Positions 8,713 through 62,719 of a DNA stretch of 64,000 bases are shown here, piece after piece. Where the stretch lies: contig KV454011.1 of the NCBI GenBank assembly GCA_001661245.1, positions 2,161,271-2,225,270 on the forward strand, read 5' to 3'. Source of the DNA: Pachysolen tannophilus NRRL Y-2460 (taxonomy: Eukaryota). The translations under genes were made by a program, and so were the position numbers. The notes under the pieces are model-generated. The model did no database searches and was not told where the DNA came from. It saw only the letters and a program-made list of their open reading frames with translations. Each line of letters begins with the position of its first letter. The first letter of the stretch is position 1.

Positions 8713-10516
8713 ATGTCCGAAACTTCTGGTGCTGATTTGCAAGTTTTACCAGCTAACCTTTCAGCTGGTTCATCTGGTTTTGAGCAAGATTACCGTTTTG
8801 AAGGGAAAAAACCAAATCTTTCAGGTTCTGGTTCAGGTTCTGGTTCAGGCACACCTGATGCTTTAAAAATTATTGAAAGTCAACTTTTAAGTACAGGTAC
8901 TGAACAATCAGATAATGGTTTGTTTAAAATTACTTCAAAGACTAAACATATGGAAATTTCCCCAAAGTCAAAACTTTCTAGTCCAGTCAAATCAGTTAGA
9001 TCAGGTAGCACAAATACTACAGCTAAAATCTTAAATAGTGCTGAAGAGACAAAAAGAGATTTAACAGAAAAAATTTCCAACATCCCTGTTGGTATTGACC
9101 AAATTACAGAACAAGTGTAAGTTAAGAATTAAAAAGAAAAATTAAACAAAACTTAATGTAACTTAATACTAACTAAACCATTTTTTTATAAATTATAGTA
9201 AAAAAAGAATTTCAAGGGAAGGTGCAAGTTTCACTTTACTTGTCGCTGGAGACCGCGCCTTGGGTAAAACAACTTTTTTAAATACACTTTTTGAACCAGA
9301 GTCAGATCATGAAGAATCATGGATGGAAGAAGAAAATAGAACCACTGAATTTAGTTTACATCAAGCAGAATTGGTTGATAAAGACTTTAAGCTAAAATTT
9401 ACTGCAATTGATACTCCTGGTTTTTTCGATACCAATAATGATCATTATTGTTGGGTTCCAATCACTAATTATATAGATGAGCAGTTCAGATTACATTTGT
9501 ATCAAGAAGAACAACCAGATCGTAAAAATGCTATTGATTCAAGAGTTCATGCATGCTTATATTTTATAACCCCATCCCCAACTGGTCTCACAGCAAGTGA
9601 TATCCGTGCTATGAAAGAACTTTCTGTAAGGGTTAATTTGATACCAGTTATCTCCAAAGCAGATACTTTTACCAAAGAAGAAATTGCTAAGTTCAAACTG
9701 AATGCTCGTAAAGTTATGAAAAAATATGGAATTAAAATCTGTGAATTACTTGAAAAAGAAGAATTAGATGAAAAGCTGTTTGAAGATATTCCATTTTCTT
9801 TAATTGGTGCAGATAGTTATGTTTCAAAAAATGATGGTACAACAGTTAGAGGTCGTAAATATAATTGGGGTGTTGCAGAAGTTGAAAACGACGAACACTG
9901 TGATTTCAACAAGCTAAGAAGTATGTTATTATCAAAGAACACTTTAGATTTTATTACTAGCACTGAGCTCCATTATGAAAAATATCGTAATGAGTTATTA
10001 AAATTTAGACTCAATGCTGTTACTAAAAAAGCTGACGCTGATGATCTGACTAAATTTGATGCCAATGGAGAAGATAATTCCGCAGAATTGAATGTAGAGG
10101 AAGAAGAGATTGAAGAAAAAGCTCGTGTTGAAGAAGAATTGATTGAAACCGATATCAAGATAAAGACAACAAATCCTTTAGATTGTTTGAAATTGATTTC
10201 GAGCTTTTCTTTGGAAGAGGTTGAAGATTATCTAGCTGAGCAAAACCCAACATTTTTACAAAAACAACATTTGATTAAAAAGGGATTTTCTGGCATTGTT
10301 GCTAAACAAGAAAAAAGATTTAAAGAATGGAAAAGTGCTTTGGTTCAAATGCAAAATGAATTTAATAGTGAAAATCAAGCTCTTCGTAACAAGGTTTTAA
10401 AACTACAAGAACAATTGCAAAAACTAGAGAGTGATCTTGAAGAAAAACCTCAAACAGGATCTGAAACAGAAGCCAAATCTGTATTTGAAAATTCAGTCAG
10501 ATCAACTAGTCGTTAA
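8713..10516 (+). CDS. SPR3: Septin, probably sporulation-specific Spr3 (Cdc3/Cdc12 group); join(8713..9116,9199..10516)
   Basis: Intron 9117-9198 (GTAAGT, TACTAAC 9167-9173, TAG) fuses two ORFs in frame. G1 GDRALGKTT, G3 DTPG, G4 SKAD, GRKYNWG septin-unique element, C-terminal coiled coil. Close to PEF1; MSE core CACAAAA at 8433. Confidence 0.75.
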
Positions 10517-10999
10517 AATAACTTGATTATGACAAAGGCTGGATTTGATATTTAGCTAAAGTCTTTCAATTTTTTAATGCCTTTTATGTCCTGTGGTTGT
10601 GTTTTCATTTTTTTTTTTTTCTTTTCTTTTATATTAAAAATAAAATAAAACTTTTGAGTAAAAGTAAATGTAAGTACTCGATTATTTAAAGGTGCATCCT
10701 CCAATAATATGACTTGTAAAAGCACAAGACTATAGTTATTTTTTTTAAAAAACAAAATGACTGAAATTAGAAATAAACCTTTTTTAAAATGTTCATTTCA
10801 TCATACCGTGCAAAATACATCTTCTCATAAATGTCATTATCTCTCATGACTTTATCTGGAGTGCTTTTAAGAGCCATAGAAGAATCAATCATATATCTAG
10901 ATCAATTCTTGATCAAACCTGTTTAATGATAAATTAGTTAAGACAAAAGCCAGTAAATTGTTTACCCTATCTTTCTGGATTCTTTCAAGTTATTGAAAT

Positions 11000-17415: not shown

Positions 17416-20400
17416 ATGGAGCTTAACTTTCAAAATAGATCATTCTCTCCGGAAGAAGTTAATAGCGTTTATCAAGTAAGTTTACTCTTGAACTAATTAT
17501 TATTATTATTGTTGTTATAATAATAATAATAATAATAATAATTATAATTATAATAGTAGTAATAATAATAATAATATATTACTATTATTACTACTACTAT
17601 TATTATTGTTATTATTGCGAATGTTTTAATTTTTGTCATATTTATATTTATAGGGTACTAACAAGTATGTGTTTAATTGAATTGATTAGCGATGGCAGCA
17701 ATTGGAAAAACAGTATGGCCAGAATGCTCCTGCAATTCCCGAATATGTTCAATTGACACAATATCTAAGGGCGGCTAGTAGATTTAAGCAATTGCAACAA
17801 CAACAACAACAACAACAACAACTGCAGCAACAACTGCAACAACTGCCCAGGCTCGATCACCAAATCCCGCAACAGCGGTTACCAAATAGTAATATTGGCA
17901 ATGGCAATGGCAATGGTAATAACAACAACAATAATACCGTTTTAAATAACCAACAGCTACAACAACCGCCGCAAGAACAACATCAACAACATCATCATCA
18001 GCAACAACAACAACAACAACAACAACAGAATACCGGTATAACGAGTATTTTTTCTCAAAATGAATCATTACTATTGAAAGCTCAAATATCTGCATTTAAA
18101 TCACTCATGAAGAACCAACCAATACCCCAAGACGTTTCCCAGTTCATTATTAACACTACAAATATATTAAGAAGTGAACAACAACAACAACAGCAACATC
18201 TGCTGCTGCAGTTTCAACAGCCACCAATTGTGCTGCCGCCGGCACAGCAGCAACAACAACGTTCAATTCCTCCAACACCCGTTTTACAAGAAAAGAAAAT
18301 GACACAGGCGCAGAAAAGAGCATTGAAGCAACAACAACAACAACTGCAACAACTGCAACAACGGTCTCAACCACCGACGCCCATGCAACAGCACCCTCAT
18401 CAGATGCAGCAGATGGTACCGCCTACTCCTCGACAACAATATCAACCACCACCGCCGCCGCCGATACAGCAACCGCAACCGCAGCTGCAACAACCCCAAC
18501 AACCACAATTGCAGCCGCCAGTTGCACAAGCACTGCTTCTGCATCCACATCAACAACAACTTCCACTACAATCCATGGGCCCTGTACCTGCTGTTGTGGC
18601 GCCGGTTCCGCCGCAACGGCAAATAGCTGAAAGAGTTCCTGAACCTCCTGTAAAAATTCATAATTTAAGCAAGACTTTCCCAATAGTCAAATCAATTATA
18701 CCTATTCATGATCCAACAATTCAAGTGGATGCGTTCAGTGTTCCAATCCCACCTCTGGCTGTTGATTATGATTTGTTCAATAATAGGAGTTCCAGAATTA
18801 TAATACCAGGTGTTTTTCCTGAAGGAATAGATGCAAATGGTGCTCTGGAAATGAGAGATTTAGTAATAAATTTACAAATTGATGAGGCAATGCAAAAATT
18901 GAGTATTTTAAAAGAAAAGGATATTCAGGCATCTATTGACTATGAGGCTTTATCATTACTACCTTTACAAAGAGCAATGAGGGGACAACTTGTGGGTTTT
19001 ATGAGATACCAAAATTCGTTATTGACAAATAGTCATCCAAATTTTTTGGCAAAGGCAAAAAGTATAACTATCAATGATATTTTAGTTACAAAAAATTTAT
19101 ATGAACAACAAAAGAAATTAGCTGCCAAGATTGAACAAACAAAAAAAATTGAAAAATTAAATAAACTTACTGAATCATCTCTTAATTGGATAACTCGTCA
19201 TACAAATAAGAAGGAAAGAATTGCAAGGTTTGGGAAAGCAATTGCATCTTTCCACGCTTCAACAGAAAGAGAAGAACTGCGTCGTATAGAGAGAAACGCT
19301 AAACAACGTTTACAAGCATTGAAGGCAAATGATGAAGAAGCCTATATCAAGTTGTTAGATCAAACAAAAGATACAAGAATTACACATTTGTTAAGACAGA
19401 CTAATGCTTTCTTAGGTTCTTTAGCAGAAGCTGTTAAAGCACAACAAAGAGATACAGCAGAAAAATTGCTGGAAAGTGGACATAGCGTTGAAGATTTGGA
19501 AGATGAAGATGTAAACAATGATAATATCGATTACTACTCTGTGGCTCACCGTATTAATGAAGTTATTGTAAAACAACCTTCAATTTTAGTTGGAGGTACA
19601 TTGAAAGAATACCAAATTAAAGGTCTTCAGTGGATGGTTTCTTTATTTAATAATCATTTAAACGGTATTTTAGCCGATGAAATGGGTTTAGGTAAAACCA
19701 TTCAAACCATCTCTCTTTTGACTTACTTAGTGGAAGTTAAAAAGATCTCCGGTCCTTTTTTGGTCATTGTTCCTTTGTCAACATTGACAAATTGGAATAT
19801 GGAATTTGAAAAATGGGCACCAAGTCTTAAAAAGATAACGTTCAAAGGAGCTCCAACTTATAGAAAGTTATTATATCCAGATATAAAAGCTCAAAATTTT
19901 CAAGTTTTACTTACTACTTTTGAATATGTTATTAAGGATAAACCTTTACTATCCAAGATAAAATGGGTACATATGATAATGGATGAAGGTCACAGAATGA
20001 AGAATGCTCAATCCAAATTGTCATATACTTTAACTCAATATTATCATTCTGACTATAGATTAATTTTAACAGGTACTCCATTGCAAAACAATTTACCAGA
20101 ATTATGGGCATTATTAAATTTTGTTTTGCCTAAAATTTTCAACTCTGTTAAATCTTTTGATGAATGGTTTAATACGCCTTTTGCCAATACAGGTGGACAA
20201 GAAAAGATTGGATTATCAGAAGAAGAAACTTTATTGGTTATAAGAAGATTGCATAAAGTGTTGAGGCCTTTCTTATTGAGAAGATTGAAGAAAGATGTTG
20301 AAAAAGATTTACCAAATAAAGTTGAAAAAGTTGTTAAATGCAAGATGTCAGCTTTACAATCAAAATTATACCAACAAATGTTAAAATATAACAAATTGTT

Positions 20401-23150: not shown

Positions 23151-26100
23151 TTATACAGTTATATCTTCCCATTCTTTCTTCAAATTTTTAAATAATTTCT
23201 TGCTACCCTTTCTGCCGAATTGTCTCTTGTAAACTTTTGCAAACATTATAAAAACCTTCTTGTAACCTATGTCCATGAGTGCAGCATTCAATATAAACAT
23301 CATCACAATCATCAGCTTCATATCGGTTGAAATTTCTGTCAATTGTAATAATTTTCCAATCCATGATTTAGCAGGAATGAGCAATAGAGCTGTTGAAACT
23401 AAAATGTCCACAGTAGCGTTCAATATAAATGGCAAGTTTGTGAATACAGGTTTTCTGTAAGGTGGACCCACGGCCAATACCACTGCTGCTATAATATACT
23501 GATAATTAGAGAATTCGAATAACACTGTATTATCAGTGGAATCCACTGCATCATCACCACCTGGAACCGGTTTGATATACCATGGTTCAGATTGTGCAAA
23601 CAACCAAATGAAAATCTGAAACAGCATCAACAACAAGATATTACATACTAAAGGTATTAAAATTTTTGGGGAAATCAAGTTAGCAGTTGGTCTCTTAACA
23701 AATAATTTTGGAAATGGTTCAGACCACGACATGAACACTGCAATCGGTAATGTCAAAAACAAATCAATATATAAAAATTGAAAATCGCCCAAATTAGATC
23801 CCCTTTTATATAATATACTGACTGTCACAAATTGAATAGCTGAATAAAGCGAAATATACTGAAAGCATGAAAAGCTGGTCACTAGTGAGGCTCGTCCTTC
23901 TTTGATAATATCTAGTACACACGAAATTTCAAAAATTCTAGAAGTAAATGGAGCAGCAACAGAAGCTTCGGCTTCACTAAGTGATATACCAACATCAGCA
24001 GCTTTTAATGCACCGCAATCGTTAGCACCATCGCCACAAAATCCAACAGTATAATCAAGCTTCTGCAATTGTTCAACCAATTCATGCTTCTCATCAGGGG
24101 ACATTCTTGCAAATATCTTCGTTTGCATTAACATCATGTTGATTAAAGATTCATCCAGGTTTCTCTCCATCAAAAGATATTTAAATACATCACCAGTAAC
24201 CGCTAAACAGTAATTTGAATTAATACTGGTTGAAGTTGGTTTTAATGTATTTGGATCTAGCAATATACTAGGATTATCTACTTCTTCCCAGATTAATCTC
24301 GTTCCTCCTGGTAAAGCATCCCCAGTGGCTAACTCTATCGTATCAAAGCTAGGGACAAATACATAATGGTCTTGCTCGATTAATCCCGATTCTTTACCAA
24401 CGCTGACTGCTGTTAATACATTATCACCAGTACACATGATAACTCTTAATTGAGCCTGATTTAATTCCGCCAAGGACTTTTTTGTTTCTTTTTTCAATTT
24501 ATTTTCAAAAATAATGAATCCCAAAAATTCCAAAAAACTTTCACACTCCTCTCTCCTTAGTTCAGAGACAAATTTTACACTTTTCTTGTTAGATCTGTCA
24601 CTGCGTTGTTTCCTTGTCAATGGTTTTCCTGCAACTGCAATAACTCTGTAACCATTATGAGTATAATAGTGCAATAATTCATTGTAATTTGATGGAAATG
24701 TTTGTGGAGCACAAATATCTTTCATCACTTCAGGTGCACCTTTTGTAAAAACATAAAGGTCATCATCACTCTCTAGATTGTAAGGTTTAACAATCACAGA
24801 CATCCTTCTTAACTGAGAAACAAAATCAAATTCTCTTAACTGCACAATATAGTTAGAATCATCATTATGATCAAATAAATTTTGATTATCGTGTGGCTTC
24901 ATTATTGAAGGTGTAAGAGTTTCCGGTATTTTAAACAGCTTTCGAAAATTTGCCAAATGCATATCATTTGAATCTTCAAATAGCCTCCAATTTGTAAACT
25001 CAAACATTTTGAAATCTAATGGGTCACCAATCAAATCTTCATTAACTGCTTTCAATGAATGACATGTGACTAATGACATTAATAAATTTTTAGCTTTTCT
25101 GATTGTTTCTTTAGAATTTCCAAGTTCATTAAGCTTCAAAGAAACTTCATTCTCTCTATAATTAAACAAATCAGCCGGACTAGTCGCTAAGTCATGGAAA
25201 CTAGAAGCGTTGCTATTATTGAGAGGTGCACTAAGATGAATCCCTAATATATCCAACCCATCTTCTGTTAATGTTCCAGTTTTATCAAAGCACATAACAT
25301 CTAGTTTACCGCCAACATTGACCCTTGTTGGAGCTATACAAAAGACTTGTTTTTTGCGCAATCTTGCAAGAGCAAAACTAGTACCAATTGTTAAAGTTGC
25401 AGGCAATGCAGGAGGAACAACAATAGTGATAATATCCAATGCCCTTAATATGATAATCTTGTATCCAAGACCCATCTTGATAAAATTATATGTTGAAAAA
25501 ACGAATCCAACAACTGCAATTAATGTCATGAATCCTATGTATTTAAATGAATCTTCGTAAAATTTGAAACCAGTTGGCTTTGGAAATAACATGGATCTGA
25601 TTAAAGCACCTTTGGTAGTATTAAACCCTGTCTTTACCACTAGCGCCATAGCTGGCTCTTCATTAGTAGTACGTGATCTAACTATCTTAGTTCCACTATA
25701 CAAGAATGATTTAGCAAAAGTTGTTGAAAATTTAGTGCTTCTAAACTCTTCAATTAGATTGAGAGCAGTATCTTGGTCTATTGATACCTTCGAAACAGGA
25801 ACAGATTCTCCTGTAAGCATTGATTCATTAACGATACAATCACCATTGAGCAAAACGGAATCACATGGGAAAATACTGAGCGAAGGGTCTGAAACTTCAT
25901 AAATATCACCTGGTACTAAATCTTCAGAAGAAACAACTTTCCAAAAATCATTTCTCCAGACTCTAACGTCAAATTTGATTCTTGATAAGTCTCTTAATCT
26001 TATCAATGTTTTTTTTGTTTCAACTAAGGTCTGTATGATGGATATCACGGAGATCAAGAAAATACAAGCTGCGTAATAATAATAATCATCGCATAACCAT

Positions 26101-27626
26101 AATATAATTGAAGAAATTTGGAAGATATAAAAAGGGTGAAGAACTTCATCGACCAGCAACTGTGAAACACTTTTTTCTTTGATATCTATCAAATTTAATC
26201 CAAATATTAATAAACGATCATCATGAGAGTCCTGTGTCAATCCGTCTTTGACTCTTTCTAAATCACACCAGCTTTCTTCTGCCCAATTAGAGTTTGTTTT
26301 AAATATATCTTCTGTAGGCGAATAATATATTCTTCTATATCTATATTCAAATGATATTAAAATAGGTACCACAGGATCTATCTTGGAATAATAGTCACTT
26401 GTACTATCTTTATCATTTGCAGAATCTTCCTCTTCACCATCTTCTTGTTGGGAAATAGAAATAGTTAAATAATTTGATAGTCTCTTATTATACCATTGTC
26501 TCGTTAAATTTATTATTGATAATTCTCCCAACTCCGTTTCTATTACAACCCAATCAGCTTTACCCAATGCTGTCTTATTACCCATGCATTTTATTCTGTA
26601 ACGCGGGAACCATCTAAAAAATAAATACAGAATTCCAAATGACAAAATGCATAAACTGTAATACAAGATTATTTTCCACTTACAATTTTGATATCCTGCA
26701 ATACCAAATACCAAATCTTCTTCTGCAATATAAAATCTTTGATAATGCAACTTTGCAGGAAAATCAGGAAAAAAATATTCATGATTTGAAGCATCTAATC
26801 TATTTTTCAATCTTTTTACTAAATTTTTCTTATCAGCATTTTCATTACCTTCATCATCATCATCATCATAAATGTCATTATCCAACAATGGTGAATTTGA
26901 TCTTGCATCCAGCCCCGAATATCTATTCCTTATTAATGAAGAGTTATCATGACTTCCATAATCTTCTATCCCAGCGTGTCTCTTACCATTTGTAAAAGTT
27001 GATGAACTTATCGATGGCGTTCTTAAACGTGATGTACTACCACTACGAACAAAGTCGTTCCCATAATCATCATGATATGAGTTCCAATTAGTATCGTAGT
27101 CCACTGGTTCATTTGGATTATTTCCTTCCATTGTTGACGTTCCTTGTGCATTTTGAATTTGATCAATAGTGAAAAATTTAAAATTTGAACGTTCCTGTAA
27201 ATCAACAGAAGAAGCATTTGAAGAAGCTGGTCTCAACTCGTTCGATTCAAAGCCTGTATCATCTTCAGCCATAAAGATTTCCTCAGTTCCCTCATTAATC
27301 ACAGATGTGGCATTTGCATTTGCATTTGCATTCGTAGAAACAATCCCCAGGTGTGATGATAAATGTGATAAACGCAAATCTCTCATACCCACTTCATCAT
27401 CACTTGTATTTGTCGAAACATTACTCAAACGTGGTGATCTCATTCTATAATGGCTATGATGATGGAAACTAGAAATCGATGAAGGAACTACTTCTGAAGC
27501 AGCACCAGAAAACATTTCATGATCATTTTCATCAACATAATTTATATTTGAAGAAGAGACAGAAGCCCTATGTATCGATGATGATCTTCTTCTTCCAGAG
27601 AAATTTTCATTACTGTGAGAACTCAT
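23151..27626 (-). CDS. YPK9: Vacuolar P5B-type ATPase (ATP13A2 ortholog)
   Basis: PPALP, FDKTGTLT, TGES, TGDN and GDGAND motifs. Confidence 0.96.
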   Translation of the reverse strand: MSSHSNENFSGRRRSSSIHRASVSSSNINYVDENDHEMFSGAASEVVPSSISSFHHHSHYRMRSPRLSNVSTNTSDDEVGMRDLRLSHLSSHLGIVSTNANANANATSVINEGTEEIFMAEDDTGFESNELRPASSNASSVDLQERSNFKFFTIDQIQNAQGTSTMEGNNPNEPVDYDTNWNSYHDDYGNDFVRSGSTSRLRTPSISSSTFTNGKRHAGIEDYGSHDNSSLIRNRYSGLDARSNSPLLDNDIYDDDDDEGNENADKKNLVKRLKNRLDASNHEYFFPDFPAKLHYQRFYIAEEDLVFGIAGYQNCKWKIILYYSLCILSFGILYLFFRWFPRYRIKCMGNKTALGKADWVVIETELGELSIINLTRQWYNKRLSNYLTISISQQEDGEEEDSANDKDSTSDYYSKIDPVVPILISFEYRYRRIYYSPTEDIFKTNSNWAEESWCDLERVKDGLTQDSHDDRLLIFGLNLIDIKEKSVSQLLVDEVLHPFYIFQISSIILWLCDDYYYYAACIFLISVISIIQTLVETKKTLIRLRDLSRIKFDVRVWRNDFWKVVSSEDLVPGDIYEVSDPSLSIFPCDSVLLNGDCIVNESMLTGESVPVSKVSIDQDTALNLIEEFRSTKFSTTFAKSFLYSGTKIVRSRTTNEEPAMALVVKTGFNTTKGALIRSMLFPKPTGFKFYEDSFKYIGFMTLIAVVGFVFSTYNFIKMGLGYKIIILRALDIITIVVPPALPATLTIGTSFALARLRKKQVFCIAPTRVNVGGKLDVMCFDKTGTLTEDGLDILGIHLSAPLNNSNASSFHDLATSPADLFNYRENEVSLKLNELGNSKETIRKAKNLLMSLVTCHSLKAVNEDLIGDPLDFKMFEFTNWRLFEDSNDMHLANFRKLFKIPETLTPSIMKPHDNQNLFDHNDDSNYIVQLREFDFVSQLRRMSVIVKPYNLESDDDLYVFTKGAPEVMKDICAPQTFPSNYNELLHYYTHNGYRVIAVAGKPLTRKQRSDRSNKKSVKFVSELRREECESFLEFLGFIIFENKLKKETKKSLAELNQAQLRVIMCTGDNVLTAVSVGKESGLIEQDHYVFVPSFDTIELATGDALPGGTRLIWEEVDNPSILLDPNTLKPTSTSINSNYCLAVTGDVFKYLLMERNLDESLINMMLMQTKIFARMSPDEKHELVEQLQKLDYTVGFCGDGANDCGALKAADVGISLSEAEASVAAPFTSRIFEISCVLDIIKEGRASLVTSFSCFQYISLYSAIQFVTVSILYKRGSNLGDFQFLYIDLFLTLPIAVFMSWSEPFPKLFVKRPTANLISPKILIPLVCNILLLMLFQIFIWLFAQSEPWYIKPVPGGDDAVDSTDNTVLFEFSNYQYIIAAVVLAVGPPYRKPVFTNLPFILNATVDILVSTALLLIPAKSWIGKLLQLTEISTDMKLMIVMMFILNAALMDIGYKKVFIMFAKVYKRQFGRKGSKKLFKNLKKEWEDITV

Positions 27627-29587: not shown

Positions 29588-32451
29588 ATGTCTGAGGATC
29601 AGGACTATTCGTCATTGCCGCTTACTGAGCGAGCAGTACATAAAGTAAGTTAGCGCCCAAGTATTTAGTTTTCATTTTTTAATTTTTAATTTCTTTTAGC
29701 TAACATTCTTTTTTTTTTTTTTTTTTTTTTAATTTTTAATTTTAGGTATGGAAAGTAAGACTTGGCGCTTATGAAGAAATGATTCAATTATTTGAAAAAT
29801 CAAGTTCTGAAAATGATGAGTGTTTCCAAGTTTTCATTTCTAATTTTGAAATTTTTAAAAAAATTGTAACTGATGCTAACGTTGTAGCTCAAGAAACTGG
29901 GCTAATAGCATTAGTTAAATTTTTAAAATATGGTAATACAGATAGAATAATATCAAAACTAAGAGTCTCAGTGATTGGTCCAATGTGTGAGAAATCCTTG
30001 CTGTCAAGTAGGGCGGGAACAAGACAGAATGCTGTTGATGCATTGATGTGGTTTATTGAATTAGATACGGCTGATCCAGTTATTGAACAATTAATACCTT
30101 ATCTTTCACATAAAATGCCAAAATTAATTTCTGGTTGTACAATGGCCTTAACTGAAATTATTAAAAATTATGGTTGTAAAACTTGTTCACCTAAACCAAT
30201 TTTACCCTTAATTCCAAAATTATTTGGTCATGCTGATAAACTTGTTAGACAAGAAGCTACAAATCTTTCAATTGAAATTTATAAATGGATGGGACAATTT
30301 TTTGAAAATTGTATTTTCCCAGATTTAAAACCTGTTCAACAAAAAGATTTAACTTTAATTTTTGAAAAAATTAAAGATGAAAAACCTCAACAAATTCGAT
30401 TTTTAAGATCACAACAAAGAGAAGCAGAAGCAGAAGCTGCTGCTGCTGCCGCTGCCGCGTCTGCAACAACAACTGGTGAAAATAATGGGAATGAAGGAGA
30501 TGTTGAAATGAACGATGCTGATAAGTTTATAAATGGGAAAGATGATGCAAACATGCTGATTGATGCTTATGATATGATTGGACCAGTGGATGTATTATCA
30601 AAATTACCTTCAAATATAAATGATAGAATAAATTCAACAAAATGGAAAGATCGTAAAGAACTTTTAGAAGAAATTCAAAAAGATTTAAATGTAATGAAAA
30701 TGTCTCCAGATGGTGATTATACTGATTTATTAAGAATGTTGGCGAAATGTGTATTAAAAGATGCAAATATTCAATGTGTTCAATTGGCTGCAAATTCTAT
30801 AGAATTTACCGCTAAAGGATTAAGAAATAAATTTGAAAGATATGTTCAAATTGTAATATCATCACTATTAGAGAGAATGAAGGAGAAAAAATTATCAGTG
30901 GTTGAAGCATTAGGTAATGCACTAGATGCTGCATTTAATAGTTCTTCATTTACTGCAATAGTAGAAGAAATTGCATTTGCAATGAAACATAAGACTCCAA
31001 ATGTTAAGATTGAAACTTGTAAATTCTTAACAAGATGTTTAAAAAATACAAAATTTATACCTTCTTCATCAGAAGTTGAATTGATAATGAATAATGGGAT
31101 TAAATTATTGGCCGATTCTCAAGAACCAGTTAGAATTGCTGCATCTGAAGCTATAGGAACTTTGATGAAACTTACAGGTGAAAGAGAATTGAACACATAT
31201 ATGGATAAAGTTGAAGAACATAGAAGATCAAAGGTGAATGAATTTTTTGAGAAGGCAGAAGTTATTGGGAAACCACAACAGCAAAGTCAACAAAAAATGA
31301 CTCTGAGACCAAGGAAACCTGCAATTGCAAATGGAACAACTTCAAGACCTGCAGCAGCTTCATCATCAAGACCAACTGCTAATTCAGATTCCAACGTTTT
31401 CCAACTGAGTTCCAGACCTTCAATGTTGAAGAAAAAATTGACAGCTCCAAAAATGCAGCAACCATCTCTTTATCCACCTTCATCAACTGTTCCATCGAAA
31501 AGAGGAGCTACTTCACCTTTAAAAAGACAAGATGAACATTCTACACAGCTGCAAATTTCAACAAGAAACATTAACGGATCACGTCAAACTAATAGCCTTA
31601 CAGGAAGATCTTTACTGTCATCAACTTCTTCTGTATTATCACAACACCAGATGCCACCAGCACCTAGATTTGAAAATCCTCTTTCTGCTCTGGAAAAATC
31701 AGAATTGGAAGCTTTACGTCTGGAGAAACAATTATGGTTAAAAGAAAAAGAGCAGTATCGTTGGACACAGAGTGATGTTGAAACTACAAAGCAAAGGTTG
31801 ATGCAAGAAATTAATAGCTTGCAAATGAGGAACGATGCATTGATGGAAGAACATACAAAGGATAATATTACTATAAAATCTAGAAATACTCAATTAAATA
31901 GACTTCAAAGTGATTTGGAATCTGCAAGACAAAGAATACTTCATCTTGAAAAAGAAATAGAAGGACTAACAAATATCAAACGTGAATCTTCAATTAATAC
32001 TTTCCAGTCTACAAGGTATACCAACTATCTTTCAGAAAGCAAACAATTACAACAACATTCTTATTCAGAAAGAGCACCTTTTTCCCCAACACAATCGAGA
32101 TATTTATCATCAACCACAGTCAGTGGTGCTAGAAGCCCCTATCTGGAAAATCTGAATAAAAATATTAGTTCAGAGTTAAGTTCTGGAGTGAAACGGTTAT
32201 CTATTGAAAACAAACTGGATAAGGAAAATGCCTTTGCATTACCGCAATTAGATTACAAGACTGGTCAAACTACAATAATAGATAGTGATAGCTCTAAGAA
32301 CAATAGTAGTAGTGGGTTTGGAACTGCATTAGGTTTAGATACTGATGATGAGAGTTGGAGAAGGGCATCAGAAGTCACTTCACAATTGAAGGCAAGAATC
32401 GAGAAAATGAAAGCAAGATCAAGGAGTAATGTTTCGAATTTTAAACCATAG
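29588..32451 (+). CDS. STU2: XMAP215/Dis1 microtubule polymerase; join(29588..29644,29746..32451)
   Basis: DYSSLPLTERAVHK|VWKVRLGAYEE; TOG1 and TOG2 (STKWKDRKE), coiled coil, C-terminal WRRASEVTSQLKARIEKMKA. Intron GTAAGT...AGCTAAC...TAG. Confidence 0.95.
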
Positions 32452-43005: not shown

Positions 43006-46000
43006 ATGAGAATGCAGTCAAAGAGGAAATCATCAGTTTCTCGTCAACCTTTATATAATCATGATCATAAGAAACTGGATGATTCGTTTAATGAATTATT
43101 ACAACCTGTATATAAGGGTAAAGGGTTATCTGATCTGATCAATACTGCAGAAGATAAATGGAACTTGTTACCAGCTTTTTTAAAAGTGAAAGGTTTGGTT
43201 AAGCAGCATCTTGATTCGTTCAATTATTTTGTTGATGTTGATTTGAAGAAAATTATTCTTGCAAATGAAAAAGTTTTAAGTGATGTTGATCCTGAATTTT
43301 ATTTAAAATATTTGGATATTAGAGTTGGTTATAAATCTAATGCCTCTAAGAAAGATGCTAGTTATAAAGAGGTTATATTGTCACCTCATGAGTGTCGTCT
43401 TAGAGATTCAACGTATAGTGCACCAATTTATGTTGATGTTGAATATACTAGAGGAAGAAAAATTATTATGCATAGAGATTTGGAAATTGGAAGAATGCCA
43501 ATCATGTTACGATCTAATAAGTGTATTCTTGATGGTAAGACAGAAACTGAAATGGCTGTGCTTCAAGAGTGTCCTTTGGATCCAGGTGGATATTTTATAG
43601 TAAATGGTACTGAGAAAGTCATTTTAGTTCAAGAACAATTGAGTAAAAATAGAATTATAGTTGAAGCTGATGAAAAGAAAAATATTGTTCAAGCTTCGGT
43701 AACTTCTTCAACACATGAAAGGAAATCTAAGACTTATGTTGTTACTAAAAATGGTAAAATTTATTTAAAACATAATTCGATTAGTGAAGAAATACCAATT
43801 GTAATTGTATTAAAAGCTGCAGGTATAACTTCGGATCTTGAAGTTATGCAATTAGTTTGTGGTGATAATCCAGCGTATCAAGATATATTTGTTGTAAATT
43901 TTGAAGAAGCTTCCAAAGTTGGTATTTATACTCAAAATCAAGCTTTAGAATATATTGGACAAAGAGTAAAGACAATGAGAAGAATGAATGCTCCTAGATT
44001 ATCTATTTTACAAGAAGGTATCGATGCAATTGCCACTACTGTAATAGCACATATTACAGTAAATGATTTAGATTTCCGTGAAAAATCATTATATATTGCT
44101 ATGATGACAAGAAGAGTTATCATGGCTATTGATAATCCTAAGATGGTTGATGATAGAGATTATGTTGGTAATAAACGTTTAGAATTAGCTGGTCAATTAA
44201 TGTCTTTACTTTTTGAAGATTTATTTAAAAAATTTAATTCTGATTTTAAAGCAAATATTGACAAGATTTTGAAAAAACCAAATAGAGCTTCTGAATTTGA
44301 TGCTTTATTAAGTATCAATATTCATTCTAACAATATTACAACTGGTATGAATAGAGCTATTTCTACAGGTAACTGGTCTTTAAAACGTTTTAAAATGGAA
44401 AGAGCAGGTGTTACACATGTTTTATCAAGATTGTCATATATTAGTGCTTTAGGTATGATGACTCGTATTTCATCACAATTTGAAAAATCAAGAAAAGTTT
44501 CAGGTCCAAGAGCATTACAACCATCACAATTTGGAATGTTATGTACTTCAGATACTCCTGAAGGTGAAGCTTGTGGTTTGGTTAAAAATTTAGCATTAAT
44601 GACACATATCACCACAGATGATGAAGAGGAACCTATTAGGAGATTATGTTATATATTAGGAATTAAAGATATTAGCATTACAGATAGTGGATCATTAAAC
44701 AGTAAAGGTACTTTTGGTGTATATTTAAATGGTACTATTATTGGTATTTCTAGATTTCCAACAAAATTTGTTGAAAATTTTAGAAATTTAAGAAGATCGG
44801 GGAAAATATCTGCATTTATTTCTATACATACAAATTTGCATCAATCTTCAGTACATATTGCCACGGATGGTGGGCGTATATGTAGGCCCTTGATTATAGT
44901 TTCTGATGGTGAATCTAGAGTGAAATCAGAGCATTTACTGATGTTGAAAAGTGGTCAATGGCAATTTGATGATTTCTTAACTAATGGTCTTGTTGAATAT
45001 TTGGATGTCAATGAAGAGAATGATGCTTTCATTGCATTATATGAGAATGATATTACTTATTCTTCAACTCATTTAGAAATTGAACCTTTCACTGTATTAG
45101 GTGCTGTTGCAGGGTTAATTCCATATCCTCATCATAATCAATCTCCAAGAAATACATATCAGTGTGCTATGGGTAAACAGGCAATTGGTACTATAGGGTA
45201 TAATCAATTTAGAAGAATTGATACATTATTATATTTAATGGTTTATCCACAACAACCAATGGTAAAGACTAAAACCATTGAACTTATTGAATATGACAAG
45301 CTTCCAGCTGGTCAAAATGCTACTGTAGCAGTGATGTCGTATTCTGGTTATGATATAGAAGATGCTTTAGTTTTGAATAAGGCTTCTATAGATCGAGGAT
45401 TTGGAAGATGTCAAGTTTTAAGGAAAAACACCAGTGTATTGAAAAGATATCCTAATCATTCAAAAGATATTGTTGCTGGAATGAGAGTTGATGAAAATGG
45501 TGATCCTATTTATCAACATGCGGCTTTAGGTCCCGATGGATTAGGTGAAGTTGGTATGAAAGTTGATAGTGGACAAGTTTATATAAATAAATGTGTTCCA
45601 ACAAATGCTACTGAAAGTGTCTTGGGTACCAATAATCCTAATCAACCACAACCACAAGCAGAACAACATAGAGAAACACCAGCTGTATATAGAGCACCAG
45701 AACCAAGTTATATTGATCAAGTAATGATGTCTGTAAGTGACAATGATCAGGCATTGATTAAAGTATTATTAAGACAAACAAGAAGACCAGAATTGGGTGA
45801 TAAATTTTCTTCAAGACATGGTCAAAAGGGTGTTTGTGGTATTATAGTTCAACAAGAAGATTTACCGTTTAACGATGATGGTATTTCTCCCGATATAATA
45901 ATGAACCCACATGGGTTCCCATCCCGTATGACTGTGGGCAAAATGATGGAATTAGTTTCTGGTAAAGCAGGAGTCTTGGATGGAACTTTACAATATGGTA

Positions 46001-47176: not shown

Positions 47177-48730
47177 ATGGCTTTTGTTTTAACAGAAACG
47201 GCAGCTGGGTATGCTTTACTCAAAGCGTCGGATAAGAAGATTTATAAGTCTACTAGTCTTTTAACTGATTTGAACAGTGCTGAAAAAGTTGCCAACCAGT
47301 TTAAGATTGCTGCTTTTTCCAAATTTAGTTCAGCAGCTAGTGCTTTAGAAGAGGCAACTTCAATTATGGATGGTAAAGTATCTGAAAAATTGAGTAAGAT
47401 GCTTGATGAAGCAAAATCTTCAAAAAAGGCAACGTTAATAGTATCTGATACTAAATTAGCCAATGCTATTAATAAGTTGGGTTTAAATTTTTCAGTTGTT
47501 TCAGATGCAGTAACTTTGGATTTATATAGAGCTGTTAGAGAATATTTACCTGAATTATTACCTGGTATTTCTGATAAAGATTTATCTACAATGTCTTTAG
47601 GTTTATCACATTCTATTGGTCGTCATAAATTAAAATTTTCTGCTGATAAAGTGGATACTATGATTGTTCAAGCCATTGCATTATTGGATGATTTAGATAA
47701 AGAATTAAACACTTATGCAATGAGATGTAAAGAATGGTATGGTTGGCATTTCCCAGAATTAGCCAAGATTGTTACTGATTCTGTTGCTTATGCAAGAATT
47801 ATTCTTACTATGGGTATTCGTTCAAATGCTGCTGATATTGATTTAAGTGAAGTTTTACCAGAAGAAATTGAACTGCAAGTTAAAAATGCTGCTGAAATTT
47901 CAATGGGTACTGAAATAACAGAAATTGATTTATTAAATATTAGAGAATTGGCTCAACAAATTGTTGAATTTTCTGCTTATAGAGAACAATTATCAAATTA
48001 TTTATCTAATAGAATGAAGGCAATTGCACCAAATTTGACTCAATTGGTTGGTGAATTGGTTGGTGCAAGATTGATTGCTCATGCTGGATCAATGGTATCC
48101 TTAGCTAAAGCTCCTGCTTCTACTATTCAAATATTAGGTGCTGAAAAGGCATTATTTAGAGCATTAAAGACAAAACATGATACTCCAAAATATGGTTTAC
48201 TTTATCATGCTTCATTAGTTGGACAAGCCTCAGGTAAAAACAAAGGTAAGATTGCAAGAGTCTTGGCTGCAAAAGCAGCAGTTGCATTACGTTATGATGC
48301 TTTAGCTGAAGAAAGAGATGATTCTGGAGATATTGGATTAGCTGCTAGAGCTAAAGTTGAATCAAGATTAAGTGCTTTAGAAGGTCGTGATTTAAGAACA
48401 ACTTCAAAGATTATTAGAGAACTGAAGAAAATTGAATTAACAGAATCTAAAGCATATAATGCAGATGCTGATGCCACTACTGATGCCATTGCTGCTGCTG
48501 AAACTACCACTGCAACTATTGCAGACTCTGATGATGAATCAGATGAAGAAGAAGAAAAAGAGAAAGTAGAGAAGAAAGAAAAGAAACACAAGAAAGAAAA
48601 GAAAGAAAAGAAAGATAAAAAGCGTAAGAGAGAAGATGAAGAAGAATCTGAAGAGAAAAAGGAGAAAAAGAAACTTAAGAAGGAAAAGAAAGAGAAAAAG
48701 GAAAAAAAAGAAAAAAAACATAAGAAATAA
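47177..48730 (+). CDS. NOP58: Box C/D snoRNP core protein Nop58
   Basis: [17 protein letters not shown], Nop domain ([24 protein letters not shown]), KKE tail. Confidence 0.97.
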
Positions 48731-52328: not shown

Positions 52329-52360
<32 letters not shown>

Positions 52361-55093: not shown

Positions 55094-55591
55094 TTATCCC
55101 CAAATAATCAAGCATCCTATTACTACTATGTTTATGATGATCAATGGTACTATTCAAAAGATGAAGAAGTTAGTAAAAAAGGTAAGAAAAAAAAAAAAAG
55201 GTTAACTAAATCTAGAGTAATCATGACAAGATCAACTTACCTCTCATGACAGTTCTCACTGCACTTATAAATTTGATTATTCTCAGCTTAACGCTTTGAT
55301 TATCCGTCAGTTGGCCAAATGCCGGTACTTCTGATTGCGTTCCCCATCCAACTAATCAAAATGTTAGTACCAAATAAAATCATTCCTATAACAATTAAAC
55401 CTTCAAGATTAATAATACTTACTTCTATTGAGAAACCTATCCTCACTCAAAATCGCGATAGAATTGAGAAGCAATACAAACGCTTTAATAATGGGTTTCA
55501 GTTAGTACACAACAATTTTCTAATACAAAGAATTTGTACAAGAGGTTTTTTTTCAATACTCACTCATAATTAAACTATAGATACCAAACAT
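55094..55591 (-). CDS. YOS1: Yos1/IER3IP1 ER-Golgi membrane protein, 84 aa; join(55591..55564,55482..55423,55351..55241,55149..55094)
   Basis: Spliced product MFGIYSLIMTFVLLLNSIAILSEDRFLNRIGWG...SVKxRIIKFISAVRTVMRVPLIIINIVVIGCLIIWG; three introns each with TACTAAC; not in the ORF track. Confidence 0.93.
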
Positions 55592-55764: not shown

Positions 55765-57532
55765 TTACCATAACTGAATATTATAGTCAGCTTCACTAAA
55801 ATAGCTTGTTAAGACGGTTCTCTCGCCAAATCTGCAACCAGCTAAAGCTTCAAAAGCTTTGGAAGAGCCTTCTAAAGAATTAAATTTGATATATATTTGG
55901 CCCACACCGGGTTCAAGTTCCAGTTTATCTCTTTGAGTAGTAGTAGGTCTTGGGATTAAAACTTCGATAACTTGACCAAATGTTGAACAATGATTATAAA
56001 AATCTTGTTTTATTCCTTCATAGATGATATCATTGTTCAATTCTGGTACATCTATACAGTTTGAGAATTGAACGATTTTTGAAGGATTATGAATTGAAAC
56101 ACCTTGACCAATTACCAGAGAAATTAATGTTTCATAGGTAATGAATTCGTCTTGTTTGTAAGAAGACAGGCAAATTCTCTTGGCTTTTAAATTATCATTT
56201 GTATTTTGAAACTTATTATTTGAGATTTTATCAATTATTGTTGTTGATAAATCATCATCTGCAAATTCCACAAATGCTAGACCAGTTGAATCGTTAGTTA
56301 AACTATGGCGTAATAGTTTAAAAGCTATAATTTCCGTTCCTGTAACTTGTTTTAAATGATCTTGTATATCTTTTTCTATTGCATCAGTAGGAATATTTGA
56401 AATTGAAAATTTTTTAATACCTTCTATAACATTTTCAGATTCTGATTTTTTCAATGGAATAGGAGTTATATATTCTTCTGGTCTTGATATCTTCAAATTA
56501 CAATCTAACAGCTCAACAAATTGACCATCAAGAGAAACCGCTATTGTAGCAAGTGAAGCATTTATAAACTCGATTATTAAATTTGTACCATCTGAACTTA
56601 ATCTTTGACTTGAAACTACATCATCTTTATTTTCGTGGTCTTCAATATTTAAATTTGTAAGAAATCTATTGAAATACAGTGAAACATCTTCCAGTTTAAA
56701 TTTAGTAAAATCCACGTTAGAAACAATAACATTTTTACTTATATGAGAACGAATTAAATTCATCTTTGAATTCTCTAATGAAATAGTCGAAAGTTTACCC
56801 AGTTTTGAAACATCTTCTTCTCTTTCATGTAATAATCTTAAAACTCTACTGTAATCGATATTCAATTTTTTAGAGCCTGGTTTTTGGAATAATCCAACCA
56901 GCTTTGCTCTGACAGCAGGAATTTTTTCAAAACCTTTAGGTGCCACATCCCATAAGGAATTACTAGGTCTCTCTATCTTATCTAATGATACAACTTGAGA
57001 AAGATCTTCATCAACTTCATCATTTTCTTCATTTTTATTTTCTTTTTTTTCTTCTTTTTCTCTTTCGAGTCTATAATTACCTCTTGTATCTCTTCCTCTA
57101 TCCCTATCTCTATCCCTATCCCTATCTCTTCTGGAATCTCTTCTATTGTCTAAATCGTTATAGTCAGATCTACCGTCTCTCATAGAATAACCTGAACTCT
57201 GATTTCTATTATCTCTCAGTGGTCTGTACGCACTTGACCTCCTATATTCATAATCGTTATTCAGCCTCCTGTCATCGTACCTTCCTCTTCCACCATAATG
57301 GCGGCTCTCATAATCATACGATCTCTGTTCAAAATTCCGATCTCTAGTGTCTCTATTCTCTCTAGTGTCTCTAGTGTCTCTAGTGTCTCTATTTCCTCTT
57401 GGACCTTGTGGAAAACCTTTTGGACCACTAGGTCTAAAATCACCTATCATACATTGTTAGTAAAACATACAAAAAAATTATAAAAATTAAAATAAAACTC
57501 AATCCATACATACCGTTCCTATCTCTACCCAT
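55765..57532 (-). CDS. MUD2: U2AF large subunit (Mud2/U2AF65); join(57532..57514,57443..55765)
   Basis: RD/RS-rich N-terminus, SLWDVAPKGFE (ULM), RRMs, UHM (GVGQIYIKF...GCRFGERTV). Intron 57513-57444: GTATGT...TACTAAC...TAG. Divergent from LHS1. Confidence 0.9.
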
Positions 57533-60586: not shown

Positions 60587-60910
60587 TTTAGGTTTAGAAA
60601 GTTCAATTAATAATTCTTTTTAATTTTACTTAATTTCTACTGATTATTTTTTTTTTTATTCGTTGTGATGTAATTTATAAGAAAACAATATTTTCAAATA
60701 CCAATATAAATAAGTAATTCTATACTATAGTAGTTTTCTGGACTTTTAGAATTGGCCAAGTTAACCAAGACTTTAGCCAAGTTGATTAAGTTAAACTGTT
60801 AAACGAGTAATAACTCCCATTTAAAATTAGTCATAGAAAGAAAGAATTAAAAGTTACTAAACGATTTTAACAACGAAAAATGAATAACAAAAATAAAAAT
60901 AAATACAGAC

Positions 60911-62719
60911 CTAGTCAAGTTTTGTGGTAATATCCCCCATACCATTTTCGATCACCTGCTTGAGCTTGATTTCATCAAAATCGTCAACTTCCAGATACTC
61001 TTCATACCATCCTTTTTCGAAAAAGGTGCTGACTGGAGTACCTTTTATTGGCCATATCCAACAAAGTATACAGTAGACGAAGAAAGACGCAAAGTATCCA
61101 CAGAAATAACTTAAATAGTATGGATACATAGCACCACCTGGAACTGTATGTGCACCGGTATCACCAACAAAACCAGTAATGTTTGGAGCAATTCCACAAA
61201 TATATGACAAATATGCTCTCCAATTACAGCCAATAGTATTATATCTATAAATACCATTTTTCTCTCCAGAATACAAGTCAAAGATATTAAGGTAACCTCT
61301 TCTAACGACGTAGTAATCTGCAGTGACCACTCCGGAGATTGCAGATAAGAAAACTGCGTATGCCGATAAGTAAGTAGTAAAGTTACTTGAAGATGAATCT
61401 AAGTTCCAAGGACAAATACAAAGTGCAAGAGCAGCACAAATATAACCACCTCTTCTAATGTTGATATACCTGGGTAATAATGCTGTCATATCTGTACCTG
61501 CAGATAATGAGTTTGCTGAAATATTGGTACCCAACTGTGCAAGAGCAAATGCAAAAGCAATAAAGAAAACACCAGCCCTATTACCACTTGTAAAATTGTC
61601 CAAGAATAATGCCAAAACATCTAATGGTGACCACAAGACAGAACCATCTGAGGTAAGCAAAGAACTAGAGGAAGAAACTAAGATACCAATTAAACCAGTA
61701 AGACTGAAACAAAGTGGAATAAATATTAACTGAGACCAAACAGCAGCAGCAGGTTTATTGGCAAAACGAGAAAAATCAGGAGCATTGACAATTAATGTAC
61801 AAAAATTAGCCAAAGCATTCATTGTTGACTTAACAAAAGCCCAACCAAATGCAGAACCTGTAAGAGTAGATTTTTCATGTATAACTGAACCAATTCCATC
61901 TGCCTTTTTAATTGTCCATATTAAAAATGCTATTCCAGCTATTGGAACAATACAAGCTTTCACTGTAAATAAATGTCTAATAGTTTGAGGAGGAAACCAA
62001 ATTGCTGGTAATGAAAAGAGCCAAAATAGAAAAAAACCTAAAAATTGAAACGTAGTTGCGTTTGGACTTGCAATACCATCAGGAATCCTTGTATTCAAAT
62101 CATTACCAAAAATTGCTTCAAGCATAATTTGTACACATTGGCCACCAATCCAAGATTGAACACCATACCAAACAATGGCCATGACAACACGATTTATAAT
62201 AGGCCATATTGAACCAAATACACCAAAGGATGCTCTACAAGAAACTGGAAAACTTACATGATAATAAGATCCAACTTTCGACGAAACAACAATAAATACA
62301 CCCACAATTCCATAACCAAGCCAAACTGTTATCCACACTGCCCACCAAGGTAAACCTGCTTCTACACCAGTGGCTGCAATTTGCCAAGTATTAATATTAA
62401 AAGAATCTGCAACCCAAAAGAATACAAAGTTATACCATTTCCAAGTCCTTCTTTCACTTTCCACTGGTTTTAAATCCGCATTATATAAAAATAATTCTTT
62501 TACTGAAAGATCACCTTTTTTCTCAAGTTCAATCTTACCTATTACACTCTTTATTGCAGTACTGAATTTCCCACGTCTTTTAATATTTGTAGAATTACCT
62601 GAATAAGAACCTAACGAGTTTTCATAATCTTCAATATCGCCATTTTTCAGTTCTTCAAGTACATTAACTTCAAAAGTTGCTTTATTTTTCTGTTCAGTAG
62701 TTATAATATCCAGGTCCAT
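60911..62719 (-). CDS. NCS1 nucleobase permease (Dal4/Fur4 family; allantoin/uracil)
   Basis: FWVADSFNINTWQI, NAPDFSRF, GTNISANS, INIRRG and PWNL motifs; GATA-rich promoter favours a Dal4-like role. Confidence 0.9.
   Translation of the reverse strand: MDLDIITTEQKNKATFEVNVLEELKNGDIEDYENSLGSYSGNSTNIKRRGKFSTAIKSVIGKIELEKKGDLSVKELFLYNADLKPVESERRTWKWYNFVFFWVADSFNINTWQIAATGVEAGLPWWAVWITVWLGYGIVGVFIVVSSKVGSYYHVSFPVSCRASFGVFGSIWPIINRVVMAIVWYGVQSWIGGQCVQIMLEAIFGNDLNTRIPDGIASPNATTFQFLGFFLFWLFSLPAIWFPPQTIRHLFTVKACIVPIAGIAFLIWTIKKADGIGSVIHEKSTLTGSAFGWAFVKSTMNALANFCTLIVNAPDFSRFANKPAAAVWSQLIFIPLCFSLTGLIGILVSSSSSLLTSDGSVLWSPLDVLALFLDNFTSGNRAGVFFIAFAFALAQLGTNISANSLSAGTDMTALLPRYINIRRGGYICAALALCICPWNLDSSSSNFTTYLSAYAVFLSAISGVVTADYYVVRRGYLNIFDLYSGEKNGIYRYNTIGCNWRAYLSYICGIAPNITGFVGDTGAHTVPGGAMYPYYLSYFCGYFASFFVYCILCWIWPIKGTPVSTFFEKGWYEEYLEVDDFDEIKLKQVIENGMGDITTKLD

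What the first reader, a model, noticed from the sequence alone, without database searches (positions are those of the whole stretch)
9698..60994. Reassigned genetic code: CUG is not read as Leu; Ala (table 26) fits best, Ser is the alternative
Seen: in-frame CTG at NOP58 47873 (EIE[CTG]QVK) and 48422 (RE[CTG]KK), NCS1 permease 60992 (EEY[CTG]EVDDF), CIR1 33296 (IR[CTG]KLP), YPK9 26628 (GI[CTG]YL), YOS1 55284 (SVK[CTG]RI), STU2 30001 (L[CTG]SSR), RET1 43135 (SD[CTG]INT), SNF2 19277 (EE[CTG]RRIE) and septin 9698 (FK[CTG]N). Recalled homologs have Ala, Ser, Thr or Glu at these sites, for example Nop58 REAKK and EIEA, Fur4/Dal4 WANV/WAYV, and Yos1 KSK/KAK. Established: budding yeasts include CUG-Ser1, CUG-Ser2 and CUG-Ala (Pachysolen/Nakazawaea) clades. 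Inference: Ala fits most sites, including the hydrophobic ones, so the supplied translations are probably wrong at every CTG.
Basis: partly seen in the sequence, partly recalled or inferred. Interest (0 to 1): 0.85.

Follow-up and report, generated by a model that had tools for sequence, protein, structure and literature searches.

The report
Known CUG-to-alanine code of Pachysolen

Summary
All ten flagged CTG codons are in frame at the stated coordinates. The 25 ORFs of at least 150 aa hold 118 CTG codons among 15,145.

The window is Pachysolen tannophilus nuclear DNA. Three public proteins match window ORFs at every aligned residue except the CTG sites, plus one odd residue each in two of them. 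All 28 aligned CTG sites read alanine in those records. Two of the records are named P. tannophilus NRRL Y-2460.

CUG=Ala in this species is published and is NCBI table 26. The tRNA(CAG) is an Ala tRNA with G3:U70 and A73, and 97.2% of 907 fully supported CUG positions were alanine by mass spectrometry (PMC4937558, Results read).

My own column test used 4 genes, 438 homologues and 21 usable CTG columns. It rejects an ordinary Leu codon: 3 of 21 CTG columns are conserved-Leu, against 203 of 358 for the other Leu codons. It cannot pick Ala by itself. Ser, Ala and Thr score within 0.5 log units of each other, and 0 of 21 CTG columns are conserved-Ala.

No tRNA lies in the window and no genome is held, so the tRNA could not be checked.

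The parts
47873..47875 (+). CTG codon 233 of NOP58 (EIExQVK)
   Evidence: In frame. S. cerevisiae Nop58 has E here and Chaetomium has A.
48422..48424 (+). CTG codon 416 of NOP58 (RExKK)
   Evidence: In frame. S. cerevisiae has A (REAKK) and Chaetomium has P. Table 26 reads A.
60992..60994 (-). CTG codon 576 of the NCS1 permease (EEYxEVDDF)
   Evidence: In frame. Pfam Transp_cyt_pur. No homologue column was examined.
33296..33298 (+). CTG codon 175 of CIR1 / ETF-beta (IRxKLP)
   Evidence: In frame. Human ETFB has L and Paracoccus has V.
26628..26630 (-). CTG codon 333 of YPK9 (GIxYL)
   Evidence: The 119 homologues have G 65, F 27, A 18, L 5. The public P. tannophilus record has A.
26154..26156 (-). 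CTG codon 491 of YPK9, at a strongly conserved Leu column
   Evidence: L in 115 of 119 homologues, in a clean alignment. The public record has A.
55284..55286 (-). CTG in the YOS1-like reading frame (SVKxRI)
   Evidence: CAG on the + strand. The minus-strand frame reads ...FGQxTDNQSVKxRIIKFISAVRTV.... No homologue was tested.
30001..30003 (+). CTG codon 75 of STU2 (SLxSSR)
   Evidence: Weighted column S 0.61, G 0.18, A 0.14. The public record has A.
31690..31692 (+). CTG codon 638 of STU2 (SAxEKSELE), an Ala-plurality column
   Evidence: Weighted column A 0.32. The nearest homologues read AAAEK/SAAEK.
43135..43137 (+). CTG codon 44 of RET1 (SDxINT)
   Evidence: S. cerevisiae Rpc2 has E and human has P.
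19277..19279 (+). CTG codon 391 of SNF2 (EExRRIE)
   Evidence: S. cerevisiae Snf2 and Sth1 both have Q.
9698..9700 (+). CTG codon 126 of the septin (FKxN)
   Evidence: Cdc12 has S and human SEPT7 has K.
23151..27626 (-). YPK9 ORF (8 CTG), used to identify the organism
   Evidence: 1362 identical residues to P0001 (P. tannophilus NRRL Y-2460). The only mismatches are 7 CTG sites, all A in the record, and one V/I next to a gap.
29779..32451 (+). STU2 ORF (11 CTG)
   Evidence: 879 identical residues to P0241 (P. tannophilus NRRL Y-2460). The only mismatches are the 11 CTG sites, all A in the record.
55765..57450 (-). RRM-protein ORF (10 CTG)
   Evidence: 550 identical residues to the unnamed representative P0361. 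The mismatches are the 10 CTG sites, all A, and residue 2.
37879..42657 (-). DNA2 ORF (19 CTG), including the CTG-rich tract at 42349-42378
   Evidence: The tract reads GCG CTG CCG CTG CTG CTG TTG CTG CTG CCG CTG.

Best explanation
The window is nuclear DNA of Pachysolen tannophilus, a budding yeast of the CUG-Ala clade. In this species the ancestral tRNA-Leu(CAG) is absent. CUG is read by an alanine tRNA whose anticodon has mutated to CAG. Alanyl-tRNA synthetase recognises the acceptor stem (G3:U70, A73) and not the anticodon, so the tRNA is still charged with Ala. Every in-frame CTG in the window is therefore alanine (NCBI table 26). Shown here: the organism's identity, the in-frame CTGs, and that CTG does not behave like the other Leu codons. 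Taken from the literature and not tested here: the tRNA's identity and the mass-spectrometry proof. Inferred: the CTG codons are evolutionarily young and arose at weakly constrained sites after the old CUG-Leu codons were lost. That is why they sit at poorly conserved columns and not at conserved Ala columns.
For: Identity of the organism:
- YPK9 has 1362 identical residues to P0001, which is named P. tannophilus NRRL Y-2460. The only mismatches are 7 CTG sites, all A in the record, and one V/I beside a gap.
- STU2 has 879 identical residues to P0241, named the same species, with 11 of 11 CTG sites A.
- The RRM protein has 550 identical residues to P0361, with 10 of 10 CTG sites A.

CTG is not an ordinary Leu codon:
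- Columns with at least 50% Leu hold 3 of 21 CTG codons, against 203 of 358 of the other five Leu codons (Fisher p=1.6e-4).
- Leu is the commonest residue in 4 of 21 CTG columns, against 253 of 358 (p=3e-6).
- In 2000 resamples of 21 true Leu columns, logL(A)-logL(L) never rose above -13.7. The observed value is +1.4.
- The same scoring names the standard residue for 59 of 60 other sense codons.
- The closest solved orthologues have Leu at 2 of 12 aligned CTG sites, even in Nop58 and Rpc2, which align almost residue for residue with their S. cerevisiae orthologues.
- CTG makes up 28.8% of the CTN box. G-ending codons make up 4.4-12.6% of the seven other four-codon boxes.

Literature:
- PMC4937558 (abstract, Results and passages read): the tRNA(CAG) groups with Ala tRNAs and carries G3:U70 and A73. 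Of 907 fully supported CUG positions, 97.2% were Ala by LC-MS/MS.
- PMC5951914 (passages): the Ala clade comprises Pachysolen, Nakazawaea and Peterozyma.
- The translate tool's table 26 is labelled 'Pachysolen tannophilus nuclei: CTG=A'.
Against: The window's own conservation signal does not single out Ala.
- Pooled over 21 columns, Ser 0.0, Ala -0.0, Thr -0.5 and Leu -1.5 log units are nearly tied.
- In 2000 resamples of true Ala columns, logL(A)-logL(L) never fell below +13.0, and the observed value is +1.4. The CTG columns are therefore unlike typical Ala columns too.
- Columns with at least 50% Ala hold 0 of 21 CTG codons, against 85 of 185 GCN codons (p=7.6e-6).
- CTG sits at conserved Leu columns more often than GCN does (3 of 21 against 1 of 185, p=0.0035). 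This includes YPK9 codon 491, with Leu in 115 of 119 homologues.
[quoted passage not shown] My four genes do not show this.
- The Ala residues in the public records reflect annotation with table 26. They are not an independent measurement.
- The tRNA could not be examined. No tRNA is in the window and no genome is held.
Confidence: 0.96

Rival explanations
1. CUG is read as serine (table 12), as in the CUG-Ser1 (Candida/Debaryomyces) or CUG-Ser2 (Ascoidea/Saccharomycopsis) clades.
For: The pooled column likelihood ties Ser with Ala (S 0.0, A -0.0). One CTG (STU2 codon 75) lies in a Ser-conserved column (S 0.61). Many CTGs are in hydrophilic or low-complexity contexts.
Against: The organism is P. 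tannophilus, which belongs to neither Ser clade (PMC5951914 passages). Its tRNA(CAG) lacks the serine-type variable arm, and mass spectrometry gives Ala at 97.2% of 907 positions (PMC4937558). CTG is at columns with at least 50% Ser in 1 of 21 cases, against 117 of 336 for Ser codons (p=0.003).
Confidence: 0.01
2. CUG is ordinary leucine (standard code), and the non-Leu columns are chance in a fast-evolving, AT-rich yeast.
For: Three of 21 CTG columns are conserved Leu, one of them at 97% (YPK9 codon 491). Hydrophobic columns occur at CIR1 175 (L/V/I), septin 152 (L/I), and YPK9 1335 and 1438. Under a model built only from lineage-specific positions, Leu is just 0.64 log units behind Ala.
Against: Conserved-Leu columns hold 3 of 21 CTG codons against 203 of 358 other Leu codons (p=1.6e-4). 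None of 2000 resamples of true Leu columns reaches the observed score. Both CTG sites of Nop58 are non-Leu in S. cerevisiae, although the core aligns almost residue for residue. The species identity and published mass spectrometry also argue against it.
Confidence: 0.01
3. CUG is decoded ambiguously, mostly as Ala with a functionally relevant minority of Leu. This would be comparable to the stochastic Ser/Leu decoding reported for Ascoidea asiatica, and would explain the CTGs at conserved Leu columns.
For: CTG lies in conserved-Leu columns more often than GCN does (3 of 21 against 1 of 185, p=0.0035). The published mass spectrometry left 8 ambiguous positions and 18 non-Ala positions among those fully supported (PMC4937558). 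Stochastic CUG decoding exists in another yeast (PMC6041473; search listing and start of abstract only).
Against: The authors found the non-Ala cases no more frequent than for the unambiguous AUG codon. They also note that the tRNA lacks the long variable arm needed for Leu charging. One of my three Leu columns (DNA2 codon 56) lies in an unreliable alignment. Without it, the excess Leu mass over lineage-specific GCN columns is marginal (p=0.05). A Leu-to-Ala change through a single TTG/CTN-to-CTG step explains the excess more simply.
Confidence: 0.02

Closest known systems
Pachysolen tannophilus nuclear code (NCBI translation table 26; CUG-Ala clade: Pachysolen, Nakazawaea, Peterozyma)
   Same: It is the same organism. 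Three proteins are identical to NRRL Y-2460 or unnamed public records apart from CTG sites, which are annotated Ala. CTG also avoids conserved Leu columns.
   Different: Nothing differs in kind. In my four-gene sample CTG is not found at conserved Ala columns (0 of 21). The original paper describes CUGs 'mainly at conserved alanine positions' in its motor and cytoskeletal protein set.
CUG-Ser1 code of Candida/Debaryomyces (NCBI table 12)
   Same: The same codon has been taken away from Leu in a budding yeast. The reassigned codons lie mostly at non-conserved positions.
   Different: A different amino acid, a different tRNA origin (a Ser tRNA with a long variable arm) and a different clade (PMC4937558 and PMC5951914).
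CUG-Ser2 / stochastic decoding in Ascoidea and Saccharomycopsis
   Same: Another independent loss of CUG-Leu in Saccharomycotina.
   Different: There a Ser-tRNA(CAG) and a Leu-tRNA(CAG) coexist. For Pachysolen a single Ala-type tRNA(CAG) and unambiguous decoding are reported.

Membership tests
CUG-Ala nuclear code (NCBI table 26) | The organism belongs to the Ala clade (Pachysolen, Nakazawaea, Peterozyma) | tested here: met
   YPK9, STU2 and the RRM protein are identical to public records apart from CTG sites. Two of those records are named P. tannophilus NRRL Y-2460. The clade definition comes from PMC5951914 passages.
CUG-Ala nuclear code (NCBI table 26) | tRNA with anticodon CAG that carries Ala identity elements (G3:U70, A73) and has no long variable arm | not testable with these tools
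   ARAGORN finds no tRNA in the window, Rfam gives 0 matches, and no genome is held. The feature is published for this species in PMC4937558 (Results read).
CUG-Ala nuclear code (NCBI table 26) | Peptides spanning CUG codons contain Ala | not testable with these tools
   Published: 97.2% of 907 fully supported CUG positions were Ala (PMC4937558).
CUG-Ala nuclear code (NCBI table 26) | CTG avoids conserved Leu columns, unlike the other Leu codons | tested here: met
   3 of 21 against 203 of 358 (p=1.6e-4). None of 2000 Leu resamples reaches the observed score.
CUG-Ala nuclear code (NCBI table 26) | CTG columns score best as Ala, or lie at conserved Ala positions | tested here: inconclusive
   Ala was best on 14 columns. 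It tied with Ser on 21 columns. It was best by 0.64 log units under the lineage-specific-position model. Yet 0 of 21 CTG columns have at least 50% Ala.
CUG-Ser code (NCBI table 12) | CTG enriched at conserved Ser columns, and organism in a Ser clade | tested here: not met
   1 of 21 against 117 of 336 for Ser codons (p=0.003). The organism is P. tannophilus.
Standard code (CUG-Leu) | CTG is distributed over conserved Leu columns like TTA, TTG and CTH | tested here: not met
   CTG is 5.5% of the six Leu-box codons in the four genes, but only 3 of the 260 columns with at least 50% Leu.

The most novel reading that the evidence does not exclude
In Pachysolen, CTG is one nucleotide away from four Leu codons but two away from every GCN Ala codon. 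CUG-Ala codons should therefore arise preferentially by direct Leu-to-Ala replacement and mark a special class of lineage-specific substitutions. The window hints at this. The mean Leu frequency in CTG columns is 0.19, against 0.065 in lineage-specific GCN columns (p=0.025). One CTG lies at a column that is 97% Leu (YPK9 codon 491). An alternative reading of the same excess is residual Leu decoding at some sites.
Probability: 0.3. Interest if true: 0.3.

Novelty: already known. Interest (0 to 1): 0.1.

Why it matters
The practical point is annotation. Any standard-code translation of this window puts Leu where the cell puts Ala at 118 positions in the 25 larger ORFs, so table 26 must be used. 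As biology it adds nothing to what was published in 2016-2018. It is worth noting that a reader working from raw sequence alone reached the right code. The small excess of CTG at Leu columns could be followed up genome-wide as a footprint of how a captured codon is repopulated.

Tried and rejected
- tRNA search. ARAGORN and Rfam found nothing in the window. The whole genome is not held. The scan's earlier notes hold nothing for this genome.
- Codetta-like likelihood. It was run on 14 columns, on 21 columns, and with a model built only from lineage-specific positions. None separates Ala from Ser and Thr by more than about 2 log units, so I do not use it as support for Ala.
- One-step mutational origin. 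I tested whether CTG columns carry an excess of the one-step neighbour residues L, M, Q and R. The excess over all GCN columns is strong (0.27 against 0.09, p=6e-6). It mostly disappears against the proper control of GCN columns where homologues lack Ala (0.275 against 0.165, p=0.12). Only Leu stays marginal (p=0.025, or 0.05 without the doubtful DNA2-56 column).
- Nearest relatives. The residues of the closest relatives at CTG sites were uninformative.
- Solved-structure searches. One (RET1 whole protein) was run without alignments and gave no site information. The eIF3k-like ORF's CTG (codon 204) fell outside the aligned region. RET1 codon 24 aligns to a gap. Septin codon 242 lies outside the Cdc12 alignment, and I did not count its low-confidence SEPT7 alignment.
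- Not examined. Only 21 of the window's 118 CTG codons were tested in deep alignments, plus 12 against solved orthologues.
Full report
**Observation**

The window has about 30% G+C (0.286-0.326 in 4-kb windows). It holds 25 ATG-initiated ORFs of at least 150 aa. Pfam identifies them as ordinary budding-yeast nuclear genes: Nop58, Rpc2/RET1, a Snf2-type ATPase, a P5-ATPase (YPK9), Stu2, Dna2, ETF-beta, a septin, an NCS1 permease and others.

Counting codons in these ORFs gives 118 CTG among 15,145 codons. The YOS1-like one lies on the minus strand at 55284-55286.

**What organism this is**

A homologue search with YPK9 returned, as best hit, a protein named Pachysolen tannophilus NRRL Y-2460.
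- Aligned to the window ORF with CTG masked, 1362 residues are identical. The only mismatches are 7 CTG sites, all Ala in the record, and one V/I next to a gap. The 121 gap columns are five in-frame blocks missing from the public gene model.
- Stu2 gave the same picture. Its best hit is named P. tannophilus NRRL Y-2460, 879 residues are identical, and all 11 mismatches are CTG sites that read Ala.
- The RRM protein matches an unnamed representative. 550 residues are identical, 10 of 10 CTG sites read Ala, and residue 2 also differs.

So 28 of 28 aligned CTG sites are Ala in public records. The window is P. tannophilus DNA, or DNA indistinguishable from it at these three genes. The Ala letters in the records reflect annotation with table 26. 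They are not independent evidence for the code.

**What is published**

In Mühlhausen et al. 2016 (PMC4937558) I read the abstract, the Results and several passages.
- The P. tannophilus tRNA(CAG) groups with alanine tRNAs.
- It carries the Ala identity elements G3:U70 and A73 and lacks an extended variable loop.
- In LC-MS/MS, 907 CUG positions were fully supported by fragment ions, and 97.2% of them were Ala.
- The few exceptions were no more frequent than for AUG.

In Krassowski et al. 2018 (PMC5951914) I read passages only. The paper places Pachysolen with Nakazawaea and Peterozyma in an 'Ala clade'. The translate tool labels NCBI table 26 'Pachysolen tannophilus nuclei: CTG=A'. The finding is therefore a re-discovery of a known code.

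**Independent test inside the window**

I aligned four window proteins, with CTG masked as X, to homologues. The sets were YPK9 (119), DNA2 (120), STU2 (119) and the RRM protein (80), with the species' own records left out. Only columns with at most 30% gaps were used, which leaves 3693 columns, 21 of them CTG.

CTG does not behave like the other five Leu codons.
- Columns with at least 50% Leu hold 3 of 21 CTG codons, against 203 of 358 (p=1.6e-4).
- Leu is the commonest residue in 4 of 21 CTG columns, against 253 of 358 (p=3e-6).
- A Codetta-like score names the standard residue for 59 of 60 other sense codons. The miss is CGC, with 2 columns.
- In 2000 resamples of 21 true Leu columns, logL(A)-logL(L) never exceeded -13.7. 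The observed value is +1.4.

CTG also makes up 28.8% of the CTN box. G-ending codons make up 4.4-12.6% of the seven other four-codon boxes.

Against the closest solved orthologues, the residues at 12 aligned CTG sites are E, A, S, L, E, R, Q, K, L, P, Q and K. That is Leu at 2 of 12, Ala at 1 and Ser at 1.

The same data do not identify Ala.
- The pooled scores are Ser 0.0, Ala -0.0, Thr -0.5 and Leu -1.5.
- Resampled true Ala columns never give logL(A)-logL(L) below +13.0.
- Columns with at least 50% Ala hold 0 of 21 CTG codons, against 85 of 185 GCN codons (p=7.6e-6).

CTG columns are simply poorly conserved. The median top-residue frequency is 0.28, against 0.55 for all columns (p=7e-4). 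They resemble the 87 GCN columns in which homologues rarely have Ala. This fits the published view that the old CUG codons were lost and new ones arose later.

[quoted passage not shown] My sample is small and uses different genes. The 2014 paper (PMC4986446, passages read) reports no Pachysolen CUG at highly conserved Leu positions in that protein set. Here, YPK9 codon 491 is a CTG at a column with Leu in 115 of 119 homologues, in a clean alignment. A second such column (DNA2 codon 56) lies in an unreliable alignment.

**A minor lead**

CTG is one step from TTG and CTH (Leu) but two steps from any GCN codon. New CUG-Ala codons should therefore often replace Leu. The mean Leu frequency is 0.19 in CTG columns, against 0.065 in lineage-specific GCN columns (p=0.025, or 0.05 without DNA2-56). 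The other one-step neighbours (M, Q, R, V, P) show no excess. This is suggestive only.

**What could not be done**

The tRNA(CAG) could not be inspected. No tRNA lies in the window, no genome is held, and the scan has no earlier notes on this genome. Only 21 CTG codons in deep alignments and 12 against solved structures were examined, out of 118. I did not open the supplementary tables of PMC4937558, which may list peptide evidence for genes in this window.

**Verdict**

The support comes from the organism's identity and the published tRNA and proteomic evidence, not from the window's alignment columns. The finding is already known and of low interest.

Noticed in passing
window 23151-27626 (-): The public gene model for YPK9 (P0001, 1370 aa) lacks five in-frame blocks of 43, 29, 20, 12 and 17 aa. 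The window reads through all of them as one uninterrupted 1491-aa ORF. At the 17-aa block, homologues P0002 and P0003 have sequence. At least some of these predicted introns therefore look spurious.
   Followed up: partly
window 9323-10516 (+): The septin ORF begins at a position that aligns to about residue 89 of Cdc12, after the P-loop region. The real gene probably has an upstream exon or an earlier start.
   Followed up: no
window 26154-26156 (-): YPK9 codon 491 is a CTG at a column with Leu in 115 of 119 homologues (QLLVDEVLHPFY motif). If it is read as Ala, this is a lineage-specific Leu-to-Ala change at a highly conserved site.
   Followed up: partly
window 42349-42378 (-), 51999-52034 (+), 18200-18208 (+): There are CTG-rich low-complexity tracts in DNA2 (codons 94-103), the tyrosine phosphatase (237-248) and SNF2 (32-34). 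Under table 26 they read as Ala/Pro-rich or Ala-rich linkers. Under the standard code they would be odd Leu/Pro runs.
   Followed up: no
window 18107-27626: The SNF2-type ATPase and YPK9 are adjacent, and RET1 lies near a PTP-type phosphatase (43006-54527). From memory, these pairs are also neighbours in S. cerevisiae (YOR290C/YOR291W and YOR207C/YOR208W). This was not checked with any tool.
   Followed up: no
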